A DNA stretch of 50,759 bases from the IMG/VR virus record IMGVR_UViG_3300012201_000005, positions 1 through 50,759 of that record, one strand, 5' to 3'. Each line of letters starts with the position of its first letter. The first letter of the stretch is position 1. The notes beneath the pieces are model-generated. The model saw only the letters and a program-made list of their open reading frames with translations. It did no database searches and was not told where the DNA came from. The position numbers were made by a program, and so were the translations under genes. The stretch is from a virus. Taxonomy: Duplodnaviria > Caudoviricetes. Shown one piece after another: positions 11,563-18,060 of this stretch.

Positions 11563-11994
11563 ATGCTCAAACATTGGCTATTGGTCGCGCTGGCGGTCTT
11601 CGGACTTCTGGCGGTTGACCTATATGCTTCGCCCCCCGATCCCGGTGGCCAGATGGTTTCGACTGCCATCACCCCCAATTCCACTTTCCTGACCGGAGGC
11701 ACAATCGAACGTTCCACGGTCCCGGCCTTCGAAGCCTTCACAATTGCCCGAGGAGCGGCCTATCTGGCCGTGGGCATCGTCGGGGTTGGGCTTCTAGCTA
11801 TTCTGTTCGCGCTCACTTTGTCCCCTCTTTTCATAGGTCAGAGCGCCAACGGTCCTTCGAGGTACTTCAACACTGGCCCCGCTTCGCCGGTTCCTGACCG
11901 ATACGACAAGGCTGAAGTCGGTGAAATGTTTGGCGACTACCTTGGAAAGTTCAAGCAAACCAAGAGTCCCGTTTTGAAGTCCCATAGCGCATAA
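11563..11994 (+). CDS. Moron-like membrane protein
   Basis: TTGACA at ~11474, AGGAGG SD, signal peptide plus internal TM, own downstream terminator. Confidence 0.65.
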   Translation: MLKHWLLVALAVFGLLAVDLYASPPDPGGQMVSTAITPNSTFLTGGTIERSTVPAFEAFTIARGAAYLAVGIVGVGLLAILFALTLSPLFIGQSANGPSRYFNTGPASPVPDRYDKAEVGEMFGDYLGKFKQTKSPVLKSHSA

Positions 11995-12108
11995 TCCTTC
12001 AGGTCACTTGACCACGGAACTTGCAAGCGCCGGTTTGAATCCTTGCAAGTTCCCCCAACCAAGGGATATCGGACAAAACGAAGTCCATCCGTCACAGACG
12101 GTCCCGAC

Positions 12109-12136
12109 GCCCTCCACTACGGAGGGCTTTTTTTAT
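12109..12136 (+). terminator. Intrinsic terminator
   Basis: GCCCTCC-ACTAC-GGAGGGC followed by TTTTTTTATT. Confidence 0.85.
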
Positions 12137-12160
12137 TCCCAAAAAATCTTTCGATTCCTC

Positions 12161-12189
12161 TTGCTAAACCTCATAACCAACTGTATACT
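12161..12189 (+). promoter_or_regulatory. Sigma70-type early promoter with CAACTGTA box
   Basis: TTGCTA-17 bp-TATACT with TG extension. Confidence 0.65.
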
Positions 12190-12229
12190 TACTATAAGGC
12201 CAACAGAGAAGTTGGGAAAGGATCTGAAA

Positions 12230-12412
12230 ATGATCAAGCACACCGACGAAACGATAGCCGCCTTGATTGCCAAGCTCGATACCCTGGATATCAACAGCGA
12301 TGAAGCGGAAGTGCTGAGGCACGAGATTGCCAAGTTGTTGATCGAGGACAGCCGCAAGATTCAGCAATCGGAATTGTCGATGGTGTTTTGTCAGTTGCTG
12401 ACCTCAATGTAG
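12230..12412 (+). CDS. Small hypothetical protein
   Basis: AAGGA SD, ATG 12230, 60 aa. Confidence 0.6.
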   Translation: MIKHTDETIAALIAKLDTLDINSDEAEVLRHEIAKLLIEDSRKIQQSELSMVFCQLLTSM

Positions 12413-12442
12413 GTCATAAGTTTATGTAAGGGAGGAACTAAT

Positions 12443-12553
12443 ATGGTGCTTTTCATTGGTTCTGTTTTGATTCTTGTCATCGTTGTGATGGCTTGGGGAT
12501 CAGTGGTGATTCTCGACCTAGTGACCCGGGATGCTGACGGGTATCCCAAGTAA
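12443..12553 (+). CDS. 36-aa single-TM peptide (not in ORF track)
   Basis: GGAGG SD; MVLFIGSVLILVIVVMAWGSVVILDLVTRDADGYPK. Confidence 0.6.
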   Translation: MVLFIGSVLILVIVVMAWGSVVILDLVTRDADGYPK

Positions 12554-12576
12554 GAAGCAGCCATCTTCGGAAGGCC

Positions 12577-12629
12577 CTCCTCCATCGCTGTAAGCGGTGC
12601 TGATGATGACTCAAAAGAGTCGAAAGGAG
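12577..12629 (+). ncRNA. Type III hammerhead ribozyme
   Basis: CTCC-T-C^ stem I CATCGC/GCGGTG, core CTGATGA, extra T, stem II GACTC-AAAA-GAGTC, GAAA, stem III GGAG pairing with CTCC. Confidence 0.85.
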
Positions 12630-12635
12630 TTCGGA

Positions 12636-12758
12636 ATGAAGAATCGCAAACTGACCAAGGAACAGCAAATGGCCAAGCTCAAGAAGAGCAACGCCAAGTT
12701 CGGCGACTCGAACGGTGATAAGGCCGTGAAGCTGGCCAAACTCGCCAAGAAGTCCTAA
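12636..12758 (+). CDS. 40-aa Lys-rich peptide (not in ORF track)
   Basis: AAAGGAG SD 6 nt upstream; MKNRKLTKEQQMAKLKKSNAKFGDSNGDKAVKLAKLAKKS. Confidence 0.65.
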   Translation: MKNRKLTKEQQMAKLKKSNAKFGDSNGDKAVKLAKLAKKS

Positions 12759-12830
12759 CCCTGACCCAAGCCACCTAACTTCGATTTGGTGGCTTGGTAC
12801 GTGACTGAGGCTAAGTCAAAAGGAGTGAGA

Positions 12831-13160
12831 ATGAATCATCTGAACAGTTTTTTGATTGAGGGAAATCTGACGGCGACCCCCGAGTATAATTCTCTCAAGA
12901 ATCGCTGCATCTTCACAATTGAGTCGATGCGTTACTACAACCAAGACAATGAGAAGAAAGTCGAGGTTTCACGCTTTGACGTTGAGACATGGAACAATAA
13001 CGCCCAGCTTTGTATGAAAGCTCTTTCTAAGGGGCGCGGCGTTCGGGTCGTGGGTCGGGTCAAAGCGGTTGACGGGATTGCCATTGTTATCGGTGAGACC
13101 GTCGAGTTCAAGGCGAGGTTAGACAAAAAGCCTTCGGAGGTTGGCTATGACCGTCCTTGA
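12831..13160 (+). CDS. ssb: Single-stranded DNA-binding protein
   Basis: MNHLNSFLIEGNL...FDVETW...LSKGRGVRVVGR OB-fold motifs; no acidic DDIPF tail. Confidence 0.85.
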   Translation: MNHLNSFLIEGNLTATPEYNSLKNRCIFTIESMRYYNQDNEKKVEVSRFDVETWNNNAQLCMKALSKGRGVRVVGRVKAVDGIAIVIGETVEFKARLDKKPSEVGYDRP

Positions 13161-13620: not shown

Positions 13621-13733
13621 TCCATGATGGCCTGAACGGTATCGGCACACTGATGATCAACGGTGGAACGCAGTTGCCCTAAGAACGGTGAAACCGGAAA
13701 AGGTGGTTAGGGGTTCGAATCCCTTTCATGGAT
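13621..13733 (+). tRNA. Non-canonical tRNA / tRNA-like RNA (113 nt)
   Basis: Acceptor TCCATGA/TCATGGA, D arm GCC..GGC containing GG, stem CACTG/CGGTG with 8-nt loop, ~43-nt extra arm, T arm AGGGG-TTCGAAT-CCCTT. Confidence 0.7.
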
Positions 13734-13755
13734 AAAAGCTCGTTGGGCAAAAGGA

Positions 13756-15036
13756 GTGAAAATGGAACGAATCGAGAAAAGGGCTGACGAACTTCATGCC
13801 CTGGGGTTGAAGTTTGACGGTGAGCAATACCACGGCACCTGGAACATGATTGACATCAACGTCCATCATATTGAGATGACAACCATGAACGAAGAGGACT
13901 GGGGCAAGATGGTGTCCGACCTCAAGAAAGTCATCATCGAGCATGGTCCATCTTTGCCGGTGGCTGAGCTTCCGGCATTGATCGGCACCATCGAGGACGT
14001 TCCTGCGGGAACGATCAAGAACGCGCTGGTCAAGTTGAACATCACAGACGTTGAGCTTGCCAAGATCAGAACGTTGGTCATATCGGCTGTTGAGAAATAT
14101 GACGGCACCAAGGCGTCCTATGAGGCCGTCAAGCGCGCCAGGCTCGATGTGGTGCCCAAGCGCACTTCGGTCAAAAAAGAGGCTGAGGAAGGCAGGGCCG
14201 AGGCAATCCAGGTGCAAAAGCTTTGGATCGGTGCCGAGAAGACCGTCACGAAGTTCTACGCCGACTTGGAAGCCCTTTGTGTCGCCAAAGAAGCCGAATA
14301 TGAAGCCGAAATCAAGCGCAAGGCCGACGAAGCCGAAGCCAAAGAAAAAGTTCGGGTGCAAGCACTTCTCGACCGGCTGACCCCGTTTGAGTGGGCAGGG
14401 AACCCATTTGAGGTTGCCCAGGACACTCCCGCCATGTTCGCCGAAAGGTTGGCTAAGGCTCAGGAGTCGTTTCGGCTGATCGAAGCGGGGCGCAAGGCTG
14501 AGGCTGATCGTTTGGCCCGTGAAGAACAGGAGCGCAAAGACGCCGAGGAACGCAACCGGATCGAAGCCGAACGTCTGGCCAAGATTCAGCGCGAACAAGA
14601 CGCCGCTGCCGCCAAGCTCAAGGCCGACCAGGAAGCCTTCGCCAAACAACAGCAGGAAGCCCGTGAAGCCGCCGACTGTGCCGAGCGTGAAAGACTGGCC
14701 AAGGTTGCCGCGGACGAACGGCAAGCACGACTCAAGGCCGAAGCGGAGACTTTGCGCCTTAAGAAGGAAGCTGATGCGAAGCTCAGGGCCGAGGAAGACG
14801 CGAAGCAAGCCCAGTTGAAGGCCGAAGCTGACGCCAAGGCCGCAGAAGCTGAAAAGGCACGGTTGGCTGCACTGGCCCCGGACAAGGAAAAGGTCAAGGC
14901 TTGGGCCTGGAACATCGAAGCTGAGATTGACGACGACCTTCCCGAGGTCCAGGACAAGGAACTCTTTGCCGCCATGGCTTCGACGAAGGTCCAGATCATG
15001 GACTTGATTCACGCCCTGATGGCACTCGCTAAGTAA
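13756..15036 (+). CDS. Long coiled-coil (A/E/K/R-rich) early protein
   Basis: AAGGAG SD; 426 aa with an extended charged helical repeat region. Confidence 0.8.
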   Translation: MKMERIEKRADELHALGLKFDGEQYHGTWNMIDINVHHIEMTTMNEEDWGKMVSDLKKVIIEHGPSLPVAELPALIGTIEDVPAGTIKNALVKLNITDVELAKIRTLVISAVEKYDGTKASYEAVKRARLDVVPKRTSVKKEAEEGRAEAIQVQKLWIGAEKTVTKFYADLEALCVAKEAEYEAEIKRKADEAEAKEKVRVQALLDRLTPFEWAGNPFEVAQDTPAMFAERLAKAQESFRLIEAGRKAEADRLAREEQERKDAEERNRIEAERLAKIQREQDAAAAKLKADQEAFAKQQQEAREAADCAERERLAKVAADERQARLKAEAETLRLKKEADAKLRAEEDAKQAQLKAEADAKAAEAEKARLAALAPDKEKVKAWAWNIEAEIDDDLPEVQDKELFAAMASTKVQIMDLIHALMALAK

Positions 15037-15078
15037 CAAAGAAAGTTGGACCGGCGCGGATCGACCGGAAAGGAAGGA

Positions 15079-16458: not shown

Positions 16459-16590
16459 ATGAAAAAGATACTTTGGCTGGGCGTCAACCTCGGGGACAAG
16501 GCGCACACTGCGGAAGGTGACATTTTGGCCACCATTGAAGTTTGGAAGAAACTCGTCGAGCACGACGAAAGGATTGAAAAGAATGTCTGA
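16459..16590 (+). pseudogene. Internally deleted DEDDh (DnaQ-like) exonuclease remnant
   Basis: MKKILWL fused to GVNLGDKAHTAEGDILATIEVWKKL (ExoIII motif HxAxxD); only 43 aa. Confidence 0.5.
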
Positions 16591-17404
16591 CCATAACGAA
16601 TCCAAAGCCGAAGTCTTGGACTTTGACGAAGCGCGAACGAATGAAGTTGCCATCAAGGGCCATTCCGGTCCTGAGCATATCAATGTCCCCACGATGGTCC
16701 AGCCTCCCACGGTGATTTCCATGACCAGTCAGGAGCTTGTGACCTTCGCCGTCCTGAACGACAAACTTGACATGCTGGACCGGGTTATCGCGTTGAAGAA
16801 CGCCGAAGAAGACCGGGCGGCTAAGATCGAGTTTGACCGCCACTTTGCCGAGATGCAGAAGGACTATGAACCAGTCCGACGCTCTACCAATGGACAGTTT
16901 GGAGTATTCGCTGACTTGAACGCCATCTTGTCAGTCTATGGGCCAATCCTGGCGAAGCACGGTTTTTCAACTTCGTGGGAAGAAGAAGACATCCCGGAAC
17001 AGAAGGGTTGGAAGCGGATTTGGAACCTCATCAGCGGGTACGGGTACACCAAGCGGGTCAAGTTCGACTGCCCACCGGCTCCGTCCATTGATGGGGGGGC
17101 CAAGGGTGCCAACGTGATCCAGCTTCAGGGAATCCAAACCAGCTATGGAAAGCGCTACAGCTTCAATTCGAACGCTGGCGTAATCCTCACCGACGAGGAC
17201 AAGGACGGGGCTTCCTTTGAGGATGGCGTGAAACTGGGGCAAGCATTCCAGTTGATCCGGGAAGCCACTACGCAGGCGGCACGGAAGCAAGCGTACATGG
17301 CCGCGATTCAGGGCAAAGACCTGACCGAACGGGAAAAGATCCTCATTTCTGAGGAGTCAAAGTGCAAGGCAAAGGAATTGTTTGATGCTGGGGTGAAGGA
17401 ATGA
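16583..17404 (+). CDS. erf: ERF-family single-strand annealing protein
   Basis: FAEMQ...FADLNAI...PILAKHGFS...QLQGIQTSYGKRYS...DEDKDG motifs. Confidence 0.85.
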   Translation: MSDHNESKAEVLDFDEARTNEVAIKGHSGPEHINVPTMVQPPTVISMTSQELVTFAVLNDKLDMLDRVIALKNAEEDRAAKIEFDRHFAEMQKDYEPVRRSTNGQFGVFADLNAILSVYGPILAKHGFSTSWEEEDIPEQKGWKRIWNLISGYGYTKRVKFDCPPAPSIDGGAKGANVIQLQGIQTSYGKRYSFNSNAGVILTDEDKDGASFEDGVKLGQAFQLIREATTQAARKQAYMAAIQGKDLTEREKILISEESKCKAKELFDAGVKE

Positions 17405-18060
17405 TCGACCTTGCTACGAAACCCAACTGGAGATTTGACCTTATCCAAGGAACGGACGAATGGAAAGCCTGTCGTGCGGCCAAGGTCACGGCTTCAATGG
17501 TCAATGACATCTTTGCCGAGGGGACAGGGAAGAGCCGAGAGAACGCTATGGCGGCCCTTGTGCTTGAGCTTCTGACCGGAAGTCCAAGAGAGTCGTTCCA
17601 TAATAAACACACCGAACGAGGCACCGAGAATGAGCCCATGGGGAGGATTGCCTATGAGGCTTACGTTGGCGATGAAGTTGGTCAAGTTGGGTTTGTGGAT
17701 CACCGGACCATTGAACGGTACGGAGCCTCGCCGGATGGATTCCGGTGGGACAATGGGAAGTTCATTGGTTTGGAACTCAAGAATAGAACCGATGCAATCC
17801 ACATTGCTATCCTGAACGGGAAGAACATTCCGAAAGCCGATATGGACCAGATGCTCGCCCAAATGGATTGTTGCGAGTTTGAAGGCGTGGACTACGGGAG
17901 CTACAACCTCAAGTTTCCAGGGAAGATGGCCCTATTGATTCGGCGGGTATGGCGAACGGATGAGGTTGAAAAGACCATCAGAGAACGCCGGATCAAGATC
18001 AAGGAGTTTATCGAAGAGGCGGTGAATACTGCCGGAGACTTGCGGAGGAAATACGAATGA
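17401..18060 (+). CDS. YqaJ / lambda-type exonuclease
   Basis: QGTDEW..R..KVTAS, RGTENEP, GASPDG, LELK, Q..AQM motifs. Confidence 0.9.
   Translation: MIDLATKPNWRFDLIQGTDEWKACRAAKVTASMVNDIFAEGTGKSRENAMAALVLELLTGSPRESFHNKHTERGTENEPMGRIAYEAYVGDEVGQVGFVDHRTIERYGASPDGFRWDNGKFIGLELKNRTDAIHIAILNGKNIPKADMDQMLAQMDCCEFEGVDYGSYNLKFPGKMALLIRRVWRTDEVEKTIRERRIKIKEFIEEAVNTAGDLRRKYE

What the first reader, a model, noticed from the sequence alone, without database searches (positions are those of the whole stretch)
12577..12758. Hammerhead ribozyme whose stem III is the Shine-Dalgarno of a small basic ORF
Seen: a complete type III hammerhead (CUC cleavage after 12582, stem I CATCGC/GCGGTG, CUGAUGA, extra U, stem II GACTC/GAGTC, GAAA). 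The 3' strand of stem III (GAAAGGAG) is also the SD 6 nt before ATG 12636 of a 40-aa Lys-rich peptide, and it pairs with CTCCT on the other side of the cleavage site. Established: an extra base between A9 and stem II is tolerated in natural hammerheads. Inference: self-cleavage releases the anti-SD strand, making a natural cleavage-activated translation switch. It would also separate the upstream TM-peptide mRNA from the ssb/recombination mRNA.
Basis: partly seen in the sequence, partly recalled or inferred. Interest (0 to 1): 0.8.

Follow-up and report, generated by a model that had tools for sequence, protein, structure and literature searches.

The report
Phage hammerhead ribozyme overlapping a ribosome-binding site
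A self-cutting RNA of a well-known kind sits between two small phage genes, and one of its helices is built from the next gene's ribosome-binding site, so cutting the RNA may be what lets that gene be translated.

Summary
Window 12577-12629 (+) holds every core nucleotide of a type III hammerhead, plus one U after A9. Motif statistics alone are weak, at about 0.002-0.003 chance hits per window, and Rfam gives no hit. Comparison settles it. An abundant IMG/VR phage class shares this architecture: 7-bp stem I with a GUGU or GUA loop, the extra U, and a 5-bp stem II with an AAAA loop. In that scan, 87 of 95 pattern rows fold fully. A covariance model built from 50 class members, without the window, scores the window at 54.6 bits and hits nowhere else in it.

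Stem III's 3' strand (AGGAG) is the only Shine-Dalgarno sequence for a 40-aa ORF that is conserved in another phage. The same design recurs in five other distinct phage sequences, one of them Tetrasphaera phage TJE1. That self-cleavage unmasks the SD is plausible: modelled unpaired probability rises from about 0.05 to 0.47. It is untested, and only 3 of 6 cases model this way. Most class members keep their SD about 30 nt downstream instead. It has no sensor, so it is not a "switch". Verdict: a new variant of a known kind.

The parts
12109..12189 (+). Context: a terminator-like hairpin with a T-run (12109-12127), then a sigma-70-like promoter match (12161-12189). This is the probable start of the transcription unit that carries the ribozyme.
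   Evidence: Consensus scan only. Such matches are not evidence of function.
12443..12553 (+). Upstream cistron: a 36-aa hydrophobic (membrane-type) peptide ORF. Its stop codon lies 23 nt before the ribozyme.
   Evidence: ORF list. It has no Pfam or PHROG hit. An analogous tiny hydrophobic ORF precedes the orf40 homologue in L081.
12560..12575 (+). cUUCGg-type hairpin directly 5' of stem III. After cleavage it would become the 3'-terminal hairpin of the upstream mRNA fragment.
   Evidence: Sequence and fold of the 5' product. Across the class, the 30 nt upstream of the ribozyme fold more stably than random 30-mers: mean MFE -6.56 against -2.87 kcal/mol, Mann-Whitney p 8e-8.
12577..12582 (+). 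Stem III 5' strand CUCCU (the anti-SD, 12577-12581) and C17 (12582). The predicted cleavage is between 12582 and 12583.
12583..12599 (+). Stem I (12583-12589 paired with 12593-12599) with a GUA loop.
   Evidence: Three other class sequences have a GUA loop 1 (L430, L466 and two copies in L397).
12600..12607 (+). Core C3-A9 (CUGAUGA) plus the inserted U at 12607.
   Evidence: The inserted U is a class signature. One member carries an A instead (L469:338-397).
12608..12621 (+). Stem II GACUC/GAGUC with an AAAA loop and a G10.1-C11.1 pair.
   Evidence: It is identical to the commonest stem II of the class. AAAA fits the RNnA loop-2 motif described in PMC2632901.
12622..12629 (+). G12-A13-A14 (12622-12624) and the stem III 3' strand AGGAG (12625-12629). 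The latter is the Shine-Dalgarno sequence of orf40.
12636..12758 (+). orf40: a 40-aa Lys-rich protein. AUG lies 6 nt after GGAG, and the stop codon is at 12756-12758.
   Evidence: It is 53% identical over its full length to L081:217-333, which sits in the same two-gene arrangement. It has no family hit.
12831..13160 (+). Downstream context: the SSB gene. Further downstream are an Erf-like annealing protein (16583-17404) and a YqaJ-type exonuclease (17401-18060).
   Evidence: PF00436 at E 5.9e-12, phrog_155, and PF09588.

Best explanation
This is a genuine type III hammerhead ribozyme. It belongs to an abundant phage-borne class with a 7-bp stem I capped by GUGU or GUA, a U inserted between A9 and G10.1, and a 5-bp stem II capped by AAAA. 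It lies in the 82-nt spacer between two small genes at the head of the ssb/recombination operon of a roughly 51-kb soil phage.

Proposed course of events. Once transcribed, the RNA folds into the three-way junction and cuts itself between C12582 and C12583. The upstream fragment ends in a cUUCGg hairpin followed by CCCUCCUC with a 2',3'-cyclic phosphate. The downstream fragment begins with a 5'-OH, carries stems I and II as 5' structure, and then reads GAAAGGAG, 6 nt, and the AUG of orf40.

The strand that pairs with the SD is on the other side of the cut and is held by only 5 bp. It therefore dissociates, and the SD becomes single-stranded. On this reading orf40, and perhaps the genes after it, are translated mainly from processed mRNA. 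The effect is constitutive and coupled to processing; it is not ligand-sensing.

Shown here: the motif, class membership, covariation within the class, the identity of the SD with stem III, the reality of orf40, and recurrence of the design.

Inferred: self-cleavage, dissociation of the 5' fragment, any effect on translation, and any effect on mRNA stability.
For: - Class membership. Model R1, built without the window, scores the window at 54.6 bits, and this is its only hit there.
- Size of the class. The pattern CTGATGATG-N4-AAAA-N4-CGAAA leaves stems I and III free. It gave 87 stretches in IMG/VR, and 87 of 95 rows fold as full hammerheads.
- Covariation. In alignment A3 of 50 members, 18 of 22 pairs change on both sides and 99.6% of cells are paired, against 33-48% when partners are slid by 1-3 columns. 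None of 500 shuffles reached the observed covariation score.
- The Rfam miss is not informative. RF00008 scores clear relatives only below its 48.5-bit cut-off: L157 at 32.1 bits and L400, which has the extra U, at 37.8 bits.
- The SD. GGAG at 12626-12629 is 6 nt from AUG.
- orf40 is conserved. It matches L081:217-333 at 53% identity. In L081 the two ORFs overlap (GTGA) and there is no spacer, so in the window the spacer consists of the hairpin plus the ribozyme.
- Recurrence of SD-in-stem-III. The other cases are L248, L269 (identical to Tetrasphaera phage TJE1), L258, L185/L263 and L498. Their stems I and II all differ, and each has a start codon 5-10 nt after GGAG followed by an ORF of 64-218 aa. 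The L498 ORF length was not measured. The L185 ORF matches phrog_5722 at E 1.7e-32.
- Modelling. The unpaired probability of the SD rises from 0.02-0.06 in uncleaved RNA to 0.44-0.49 in the 3' product. The cofold gain of the two products is only -6.8 kcal/mol.
- Class context. 45 of 63 unique ribozymes have an SD and start codon within 45 nt downstream, against 596 of 5000 random same-strand positions.
- Loops. AAAA as loop 2 and a 5' U in loop 1 fit the tertiary-contact motifs in PMC2632901 (passages read).
Against: - There is no experimental or RNA evidence of cleavage.
- Rfam gives no hit for the window even at E<=10, although it does score relatives at 32-38 bits. I cannot fully explain this difference.
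- The thermodynamic z-score is weak, at -1.28.
- Modelling shows little or no unmasking in 3 of the 6 SD-type cases: L258 0.63 to 0.60, L185 0.49 to 0.71, L498 0.30 to 0.64.
- In the scan that left stem III free, only 2 of 87 folded rows, plus the window, have CUC/GGAG. The usual SD lies 29-32 nt downstream. SD masking is therefore not what the class does in general.
- A 5-bp helix is a weak barrier to a 30S subunit.
- Natural hammerheads usually cut fast, so the uncleaved state may be too short-lived to matter.
- The homologous gene pair in L081 works without any ribozyme.
- In TJE1 the GenBank annotation places a hypothetical ORF (orf18) on the opposite strand across the ribozyme. The sense of transcription there is unresolved: GC3 is only weakly informative and neither strand's ORFs have family hits.
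- No close relative of this phage was found, so the element's conservation at this particular locus could not be tested.
- The A3 sequences were chosen with a descriptor that demands pairing, which inflates the percentage paired.
Confidence: 0.55

Rival explanations
1. The hammerhead is real and active, but its job is only mRNA processing: separating cistrons and setting different stabilities through the 3' hairpin on one product and the 5' structure on the other. On this view the overlap of stem III with the SD is mere compaction and has no measurable effect on translation.
For: - Most class members have their SD 29-32 nt outside the ribozyme.
- Upstream hairpins are enriched across the whole class.
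- L157 and L540 show intermediate forms in which the SD abuts stem III without lying inside it.
- Modelling shows no masking in 3 of 6 SD-type cases.
- The 2019 review PMC6765202 (passages read) names processing of polycistronic transcripts as the suggested role of bacterial hammerheads.
Against: - Six distinct sequences place the SD inside stem III at a start-codon spacing of 5-10 nt.
- For the window, L248 and L269 the model predicts roughly 6- to 150-fold lower SD accessibility before cleavage.
Confidence: 0.3
2. The coupling runs the other way. Binding of a 30S subunit to the nascent SD would prevent stem III from forming and so block self-cleavage. Only mRNAs that are not being initiated would then be cut, and the ribozyme would act as a translation-status sensor that triggers mRNA decay or operon uncoupling.
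For: - The SD is the last ribozyme segment to be transcribed, so folding of stem III and 30S binding compete for the same 5 nt (sequence).
- Stem III is short, at 5 bp.
Against: - No data bear on this directly.
- Local RNA helices generally form faster than 30S subunits bind (general knowledge, recalled).
- The upstream ORF stops 23 nt before stem III, so a terminating ribosome probably does not cover it (inference from the spacing).
Confidence: 0.08
3. The sequence is a chance look-alike or a decayed, inactive relic that has no effect on the transcript.
For: - The motif alone is expected about 0.002-0.003 times per window.
- Rfam does not hit it.
- The fold z-score is -1.28.
- No homologous locus shows the element conserved in place.
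Against: - The independent class model scores it at 54.6 bits and hits nothing else in the window, with no hits in 502 kb of control loci.
- Every core position is consensus.
- It lies exactly in an intergenic spacer on the coding strand.
- Stem II with its loop is identical to the class's commonest version.
Confidence: 0.07

Closest known systems
Type III hammerhead ribozymes of phages and bacteria (Rfam RF00008; Perreault et al. 2011, PMC3088659)
   Same: The core, the three-helix junction, loops on stems I and II, intergenic location in phage DNA, and frequent occurrence of several copies per genome.
   Different: The window's copy has a U inserted after A9, a CUC cleavage triplet, and a stem III made of the anti-SD/SD pair. 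Rfam does not report it. The main text of PMC3088659 contains none of 'Shine-Dalgarno', 'ribosome binding' or 'translation' (term searches). Its supplements could not be seen.
HHphage of haloviruses HF1/HF2 (Perreault et al. 2011)
   Same: A hammerhead only 13 nt upstream of the start codon of the first ORF of an early polycistronic transcript. The mapped 5' end lies within 3 nt of the cleavage site, and a gene-control role was proposed (Discussion passage read).
   Different: It comes from an archaeal virus, its core insertions are near C3, and the proposal concerns salt dependence. No pairing of a ribosome-binding site within a ribozyme helix is described.
CChMVd (+) viroid hammerhead with an extra A between A9 and G10.1 (De la Pena & Flores 2001, J Biol Chem 276:34586)
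   Same: A natural extra nucleotide at the same core position.
   Different: It is from a plant viroid, the extra base is A rather than U, and there is no coding context. I saw only the title in reference lists and a figure legend in PMC3705267; the paper itself is not held. That a U at this position raises the rate is my recollection of its abstract and comes from no call.
Synthetic hammerhead devices that hide the SD in a ribozyme helix and release it on cleavage
   Same: The SD is paired inside the ribozyme and freed by self-cleavage, which turns translation on. The 2025 review PMC12192606 describes such a sensor with the Schistosoma N79 ribozyme placed in a 5' UTR (passages read).
   Different: These are engineered and ligand-gated through an aptamer. 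The SD is usually placed in an extended stem I; this detail, and the names Ogawa & Maeda 2008 and Wieland & Hartig 2008, are recalled and come from no call. The phage element has no aptamer and uses stem III.
[quoted passage not shown]
   Same: A viral ribozyme placed just upstream of a coding region and linked to translation (abstract and passages read).
   Different: These are eukaryotic RNA viruses carrying type I hammerheads, and no SD/anti-SD logic is involved.

Membership tests
Hammerhead ribozyme, type III | Conserved core C3 U4 G5 A6 N7 G8 A9 and G12 A13 A14 | tested here: met
   CUGAUGA at 12600-12606 and GAA at 12622-24. One U is inserted after A9, as in at least 87 related phage copies.
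Hammerhead ribozyme, type III | A15.1-U16.1 pair and a non-G nucleotide 17 at the cleavage site | tested here: met
   A12625 pairs with U12581, and position 17 is C12582.
Hammerhead ribozyme, type III | Three helices around the core, with I and II closed by loops and III open | tested here: met
   This is the minimum-free-energy structure. It persists in 107-nt and 161-nt contexts and in the alignment to model R1.
Hammerhead ribozyme, type III | Helices supported by covariation among relatives | tested here: met
   Tested at class level: 18 of 22 pairs change on both sides in 50 sequences (the sequences were preselected for pairing). No orthologous copy at this locus was available.
Hammerhead ribozyme, type III | Loop 1 / loop 2 tertiary-contact motifs (UNmYN and RNnA; PMC2632901) | tested here: inconclusive
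   Loop 2 (AAAA) fits RNnA. Loop 1, read as UGUAA, has the 5' U but no penultimate pyrimidine.
Hammerhead ribozyme, type III | Score at or above the Rfam RF00008 gathering threshold (48.5 bits) | tested here: not met
   No hit at all. Clear relatives also fall below the threshold, at 32.1 and 37.8 bits, so the threshold misses this phage class.
Hammerhead ribozyme, type III | Site-specific Mg2+-dependent self-cleavage | not testable with these tools
   No RNA data were available. No listed sequencing run is on record as RNA.
Phage 'extra-U' hammerhead class (defined here) | 7-bp stem I with a GUGU or GUA loop, U after A9, 5-bp stem II with AAAA, and a strong score with model R1 | tested here: met
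   54.6 bits with a model that excluded the window.
Cleavage-released SD device (works-like comparison with synthetic designs) | The functional SD is paired within a ribozyme helix and its partner strand lies across the scissile bond | tested here: met
   AGGAG at 12625-29 pairs with CUCCU at 12577-81, and the cut follows 12582. GGAG is 6 nt from the AUG of a conserved ORF.
Cleavage-released SD device (works-like comparison with synthetic designs) | Translation depends on cleavage | not testable with these tools
   Only thermodynamic modelling was possible: SD unpaired probability 0.057 to 0.47 for the window, with mixed results across the six cases.
Riboswitch / aptazyme | A ligand-binding aptamer domain that controls the ribozyme | tested here: not met
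   The 53-nt element consists only of the minimal three helices with 3- and 4-nt loops. No riboswitch family matched.

The most novel reading that the evidence does not exclude
Phages may carry a portable three-part RNA cassette: a 3'-protective hairpin, a hammerhead, and a Shine-Dalgarno sequence. In one sub-form, the ribozyme's stem III is itself the anti-SD/SD duplex. Translation of the downstream cistron would then be gated by self-cleavage. This would be a natural counterpart of the engineered SD-release ribozyme devices. It would also be the first mechanistically defined role for the many hammerheads of phages: turning a translationally coupled gene pair (as in L081) into two separately stabilised and separately initiated mRNAs.
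Probability: 0.3. Interest if true: 0.75.

Novelty: new variant of a known kind. Interest (0 to 1): 0.55.

Why it matters
Thousands of hammerheads are known in phages and bacteria, yet their biological role is still described as open (reviews PMC6155905 and PMC6765202, passages read). This locus and its five counterparts offer a concrete, cheap test. If a catalytically dead core silences the downstream gene, and an anti-SD mutation rescues it, then self-cleavage acts as a translation-licensing step.

One counterpart is a cultured phage, Tetrasphaera phage TJE1, so the test can be done in a real infection.

Three class-level observations suggest a general mRNA-processing cassette:
- The ribozyme typically lies about 30 nt upstream of a start codon.
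- A hairpin typically lies just upstream of it.
- The extra U goes with a 5-bp stem II.

Such a cassette could be useful as a natural insulator part. The results also show that Rfam's type III threshold misses this large phage class.

Tried and rejected
- **Rfam.** There was no hit at the gathering score on the whole window, at E<=10 on two slices, or for RF00008 over the record. There was also none at E<=1 on 11 loci that hold clear hammerheads. Small-slice controls then showed that the model does see relatives, at 32-38 bits. I treat the window's miss as uninformative, but I could not explain why it falls below about 7-10 bits.
- **Orthologous loci.** I looked for them through the neighbouring SSB gene.
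  - The single protein found nothing in IMG/VR.
  - A 12-sequence alignment gave 80 metagenome loci and 37 viral loci.
  - None of these 117 loci holds a hammerhead by my descriptor, and none of the 100 searched holds one by model R1 (L101-L117 were not searched with R1).
  - Conservation at this locus therefore remains untested.
- **Exact core pattern.** The window's exact stem II and core pattern is absent from IMG/VR.
- **BLAST against GenBank phages.** The 2.5-kb region gave no match, and a class member also gave none.
- **orf40.** tblastn over the fetched loci gave one credible homologue, L081. Pattern searches with the two-sequence alignment found no confirmed relatives in IMG/VR or in genome contigs.
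- **Sequencing runs.** No RNA holder is listed. Contigs of X2, X3 and X4 cover 12464-12654 with no differences; X5 does not cover that stretch. There is therefore neither population variation nor RNA ends to read.
- **Bacterial genomes.** The best R1 score at a site I checked against its pattern coordinates was 20.4 bits, in L320; the five lower hits were not checked.
- **Coding strand in TJE1.** GC3 and PHROG tests were inconclusive.
- **Claim of 'not in print'.** The natural SD-in-stem-III design did not surface in searches, or in term searches inside PMC3088659. Subscription journals are not covered.
Full report
**What is there.** The window is a 50,759-bp IMG/VR virus record rated 99% complete. 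Near-identical DNA is held in soil metagenome runs from several studies. All long ORFs lie on the + strand.

The finding sits in the 82-nt gap between two ORFs. Upstream is a 36-aa hydrophobic ORF (12443-12553). Downstream is a 40-aa Lys-rich ORF (12636-12758). Just beyond lie an SSB gene (PF00436, E 5.9e-12), an Erf-like annealing protein and a YqaJ exonuclease. A terminator-like hairpin (12109-12127) and a promoter-like site (12161-12189) suggest that the transcription unit starts about 400 nt upstream. This rests on a consensus scan only.

**The motif.** The sequence gives the following parts:
- CUCCU at 12577-81
- C17 at 12582
- stem I at 12583-89 / 12593-99
- CUGAUGA at 12600-06
- an extra U at 12607
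- stem II GACUC-AAAA-GAGUC at 12608-21
- GAA at 12622-24
- AGGAG at 12625-29
- 6 nt, then AUG at 12636

The minimum-free-energy fold is exactly this junction. It persists in 107-nt and 161-nt contexts.

**Is it more than chance?** The motif by itself does not settle this.
- A descriptor that allows 0-1 inserted base found 1 hit of equal stem quality in 60 Mb of random sequence, and 2 hits with at least 17 bp. That is about 0.002-0.003 per window.
- The fold z-score is -1.28.
- Rfam reports no hammerhead at any threshold tried.
- No close relative of the phage exists in the collections searched.
- 117 loci found through the SSB gene contain no such element.

**The comparative evidence.**
- *First scan.* A scan of IMG/VR for CTGATGATG-N8-24-CGAAAGGAG gave 52 stretches. 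Five of them (four distinct sequences) have the whole architecture, with entirely different stems I and II: L185/L263, L248, L258 and L269.
- *Second scan.* This one left stems I and III free: CTGATGATG-N4-AAAA-N4-CGAAA. It gave 87 stretches, against the handful I estimate by hand for chance; that estimate comes from no tool. Of 95 rows, 87 fold as full type III hammerheads. Their cleavage triplets are GUC 64, AUC 20, CUC 2 and GUA 1.
- *Consequence.* The 'extra U' is therefore the signature of a large phage class, not a defect. The class has a 7-bp stem I capped by GUGU (sometimes GUA, as in the window), the U after A9, and a 5-bp stem II capped by AAAA. The window's stem II and loop are identical to the commonest version.
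- *Covariation.* In an alignment of 50 unique members, 18 of 22 pairs change on both sides. 99.6% of cells pair, against 33-48% when partners are slid. These rows had been selected for pairing, so the percentage is inflated, but the diversity of pair types is not.
- *Model test.* Covariance model R1 was built from those 50 and excluded the window and every SD-type member.
  - It hits the window once, at 12576-12630, with 54.6 bits.
  - It gives 71.7 bits for L269 and 67.1 for L248.
  - It finds nothing at E<=1 in 502 kb of control loci.
- *Rfam controls.* RF00008 scores a canonical phage copy (L157) at 32.1 bits and an extra-U copy (L400) at 37.8 bits. Both are below its 48.5-bit threshold. 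The Rfam threshold simply misses this class. Why the window's copy is not listed at all remains unexplained.

**The Shine-Dalgarno overlap.** GGAG at 12626-29 is the only SD ahead of AUG 12636, at a 6-nt spacing. The ORF is real. L081 encodes a protein of the same length that is 53% identical, and it is preceded by a tiny hydrophobic ORF. In L081 the two ORFs overlap by GTGA and have no spacer. In the window the spacer is filled by a cUUCGg hairpin (12560-75) plus the ribozyme.

The same overlap occurs in five other sequences:
- L248
- L269, whose ribozyme region (a 400-nt stretch compared) is identical to Tetrasphaera phage TJE1, NC_019930 complement 12324-12379
- L258
- L185/L263
- L498, which is a canonical copy without the extra U

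Each has a start codon 5-10 nt after GGAG, and the ORFs measured are 64-218 aa long. The L498 ORF was not measured. The L185 ORF matches phrog_5722 at E 1.7e-32. L157 and L540 have the SD directly abutting stem III.

Across the class, 45 of 63 unique ribozymes have a strong SD and start codon within 45 nt downstream, most often at 29-32 nt. Random same-strand positions give 596 of 5000. The class is thus a 5'-leader element, and the SD-in-stem-III form is its most compact variant. That variant is a minority: 2 of 87 rows, plus the window, in the scan that left stem III free.

**How it most likely works.** The steps are given under Best explanation. Only the anatomy is shown; the rest is inferred.
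- *Modelling for the window.* The unpaired probability of the SD is 0.02-0.06 before cleavage and 0.44-0.49 in the 3' product. The two products gain only -6.8 kcal/mol by staying together, so dissociation at cellular concentrations is expected.
- *Other cases.* L248 and L269 behave like the window. L258, L185 and L498 do not. This may reflect the limits of secondary-structure modelling, or it may be a real difference.
- *Why not a switch.* Natural hammerheads usually cut quickly and there is no sensor domain. The effect would therefore be constitutive licensing.
- *Upstream hairpins.* They are enriched across the class (mean -6.56 against -2.87 kcal/mol, p 8e-8). This fits a processing cassette that leaves both products with protected ends.

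**Against this reading.**
- The TJE1 record annotates a hypothetical ORF on the opposite strand across the ribozyme. Neither strand's ORFs have family support, and GC3 is only weakly informative.
- No RNA data exist for any of these phages in the runs offered.

**Comparison with what is known.** Hammerheads in phage intergenic regions are well known.
- Perreault et al. 2011 noted one 13 nt upstream of a start codon in haloviruses HF1/HF2 and proposed gene control (PMC3088659, passages read).
- An extra base after A9 is known from the CChMVd viroid (figure legend and reference titles).
- AAAA is one of the two commonest loop-2 sequences of natural hammerheads (PMC2632901).
- Hiding an SD in a hammerhead helix so that cleavage releases it is an engineered design (PMC12192606).

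I found no description of a natural case in three full-text searches. Reviews still call the function of prokaryotic hammerheads open.

**Verdict.** It is a real member of a known ribozyme family and belongs to a populous phage subclass that Rfam's threshold misses. The new part is the recurrent use of the SD/anti-SD pair as stem III. It is plausible and easy to test, but its functional consequence is not shown. Interest 0.55.

Noticed in passing
window 12560-12575; also the 30 nt upstream of the ribozymes in L248, L258, L269 and others: A stable hairpin sits 1-3 nt before stem III. In the window it is a cUUCGg hairpin; in L248, L258 and L269 it is a G/C-rich 5-6 bp hairpin. Across 63 unique ribozymes the upstream 30 nt fold at a mean of -6.56 kcal/mol, against -2.87 for random 30-mers from the same loci. 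After cleavage this hairpin would be the 3' end of the upstream mRNA.
   Followed up: partly
loci (for example L397, L400, L407, L413, L443, L452): In the same phage contigs, all 8 canonical copies (no inserted base) have a 4-bp stem II. Copies with the inserted U have a 5-bp stem II in most cases; a few parse as 4 bp. In both kinds stem I is usually 7 bp (5-8). The extra U may compensate for helix length in loop-loop docking.
   Followed up: no
L397:10419-11243; L410, L432, L436, L456, L461, L473, L479: Several phage contigs carry two or three hammerheads in series. L397 has three within about 0.8 kb, each ahead of its own SD and start codon. This recalls the triple arrangement reported for Agrobacterium (PMC3088659).
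   Followed up: no
L269 / L545 = Tetrasphaera phage TJE1 NC_019930, record 11974-12738: The annotated hypothetical orf18 (+ strand) is antisense to a 71.7-bit hammerhead and to two plausible small ORFs (88 aa and 80 aa) that flank it on the other strand. orf18 may be a mis-call. GC3 (0.57 against 0.71 and 0.62) and PHROG searches do not settle it.
   Followed up: partly
window 12443-12758 and L081:138-336: A pair made of a tiny hydrophobic ORF and a roughly 40-aa Lys-rich ORF is shared by two otherwise distant phages. The basic ORFs are 53% identical; the hydrophobic ORFs showed no detectable sequence similarity. The ORFs overlap (GTGA) in L081 and are separated by the ribozyme cassette in the window. 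Neither protein has a Pfam or PHROG family.
   Followed up: partly
window 12766-12797: A perfect 10-bp inverted repeat (12766-12775 with 12788-12797) with a 12-nt loop lies right after the orf40 stop codon and before the SSB gene's SD. No T-run follows, so it does not look like an intrinsic terminator. It may be an mRNA-stabilising or processing hairpin.
   Followed up: no
window 12109-12189: A strong terminator-like hairpin with a T-run is followed by a promoter-like site. The listed 134-aa ORF 12008-12412 spans both, so its true start is probably the ATG near 12230.
   Followed up: no
window 13726-15039: A 426-aa Glu/Ala/Lys-rich ORF (+) is mirrored by a 437-aa antisense ORF of almost the same extent. 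The antisense frame is probably an artefact of the low-complexity repeat. A GCC insertion variant at 14838 appears in three runs, carried on short contigs that match the stretch for only about 36 nt and may not belong to this phage.
   Followed up: no
L333:165-217 and L320:4249-4295 (bacterial MAG contigs): Model R1 gives 26.4 and 20.4 bits at these sites. They may be hammerheads in Oscillospiraceae and Clostridia genomes or prophages. They were not examined.
   Followed up: no
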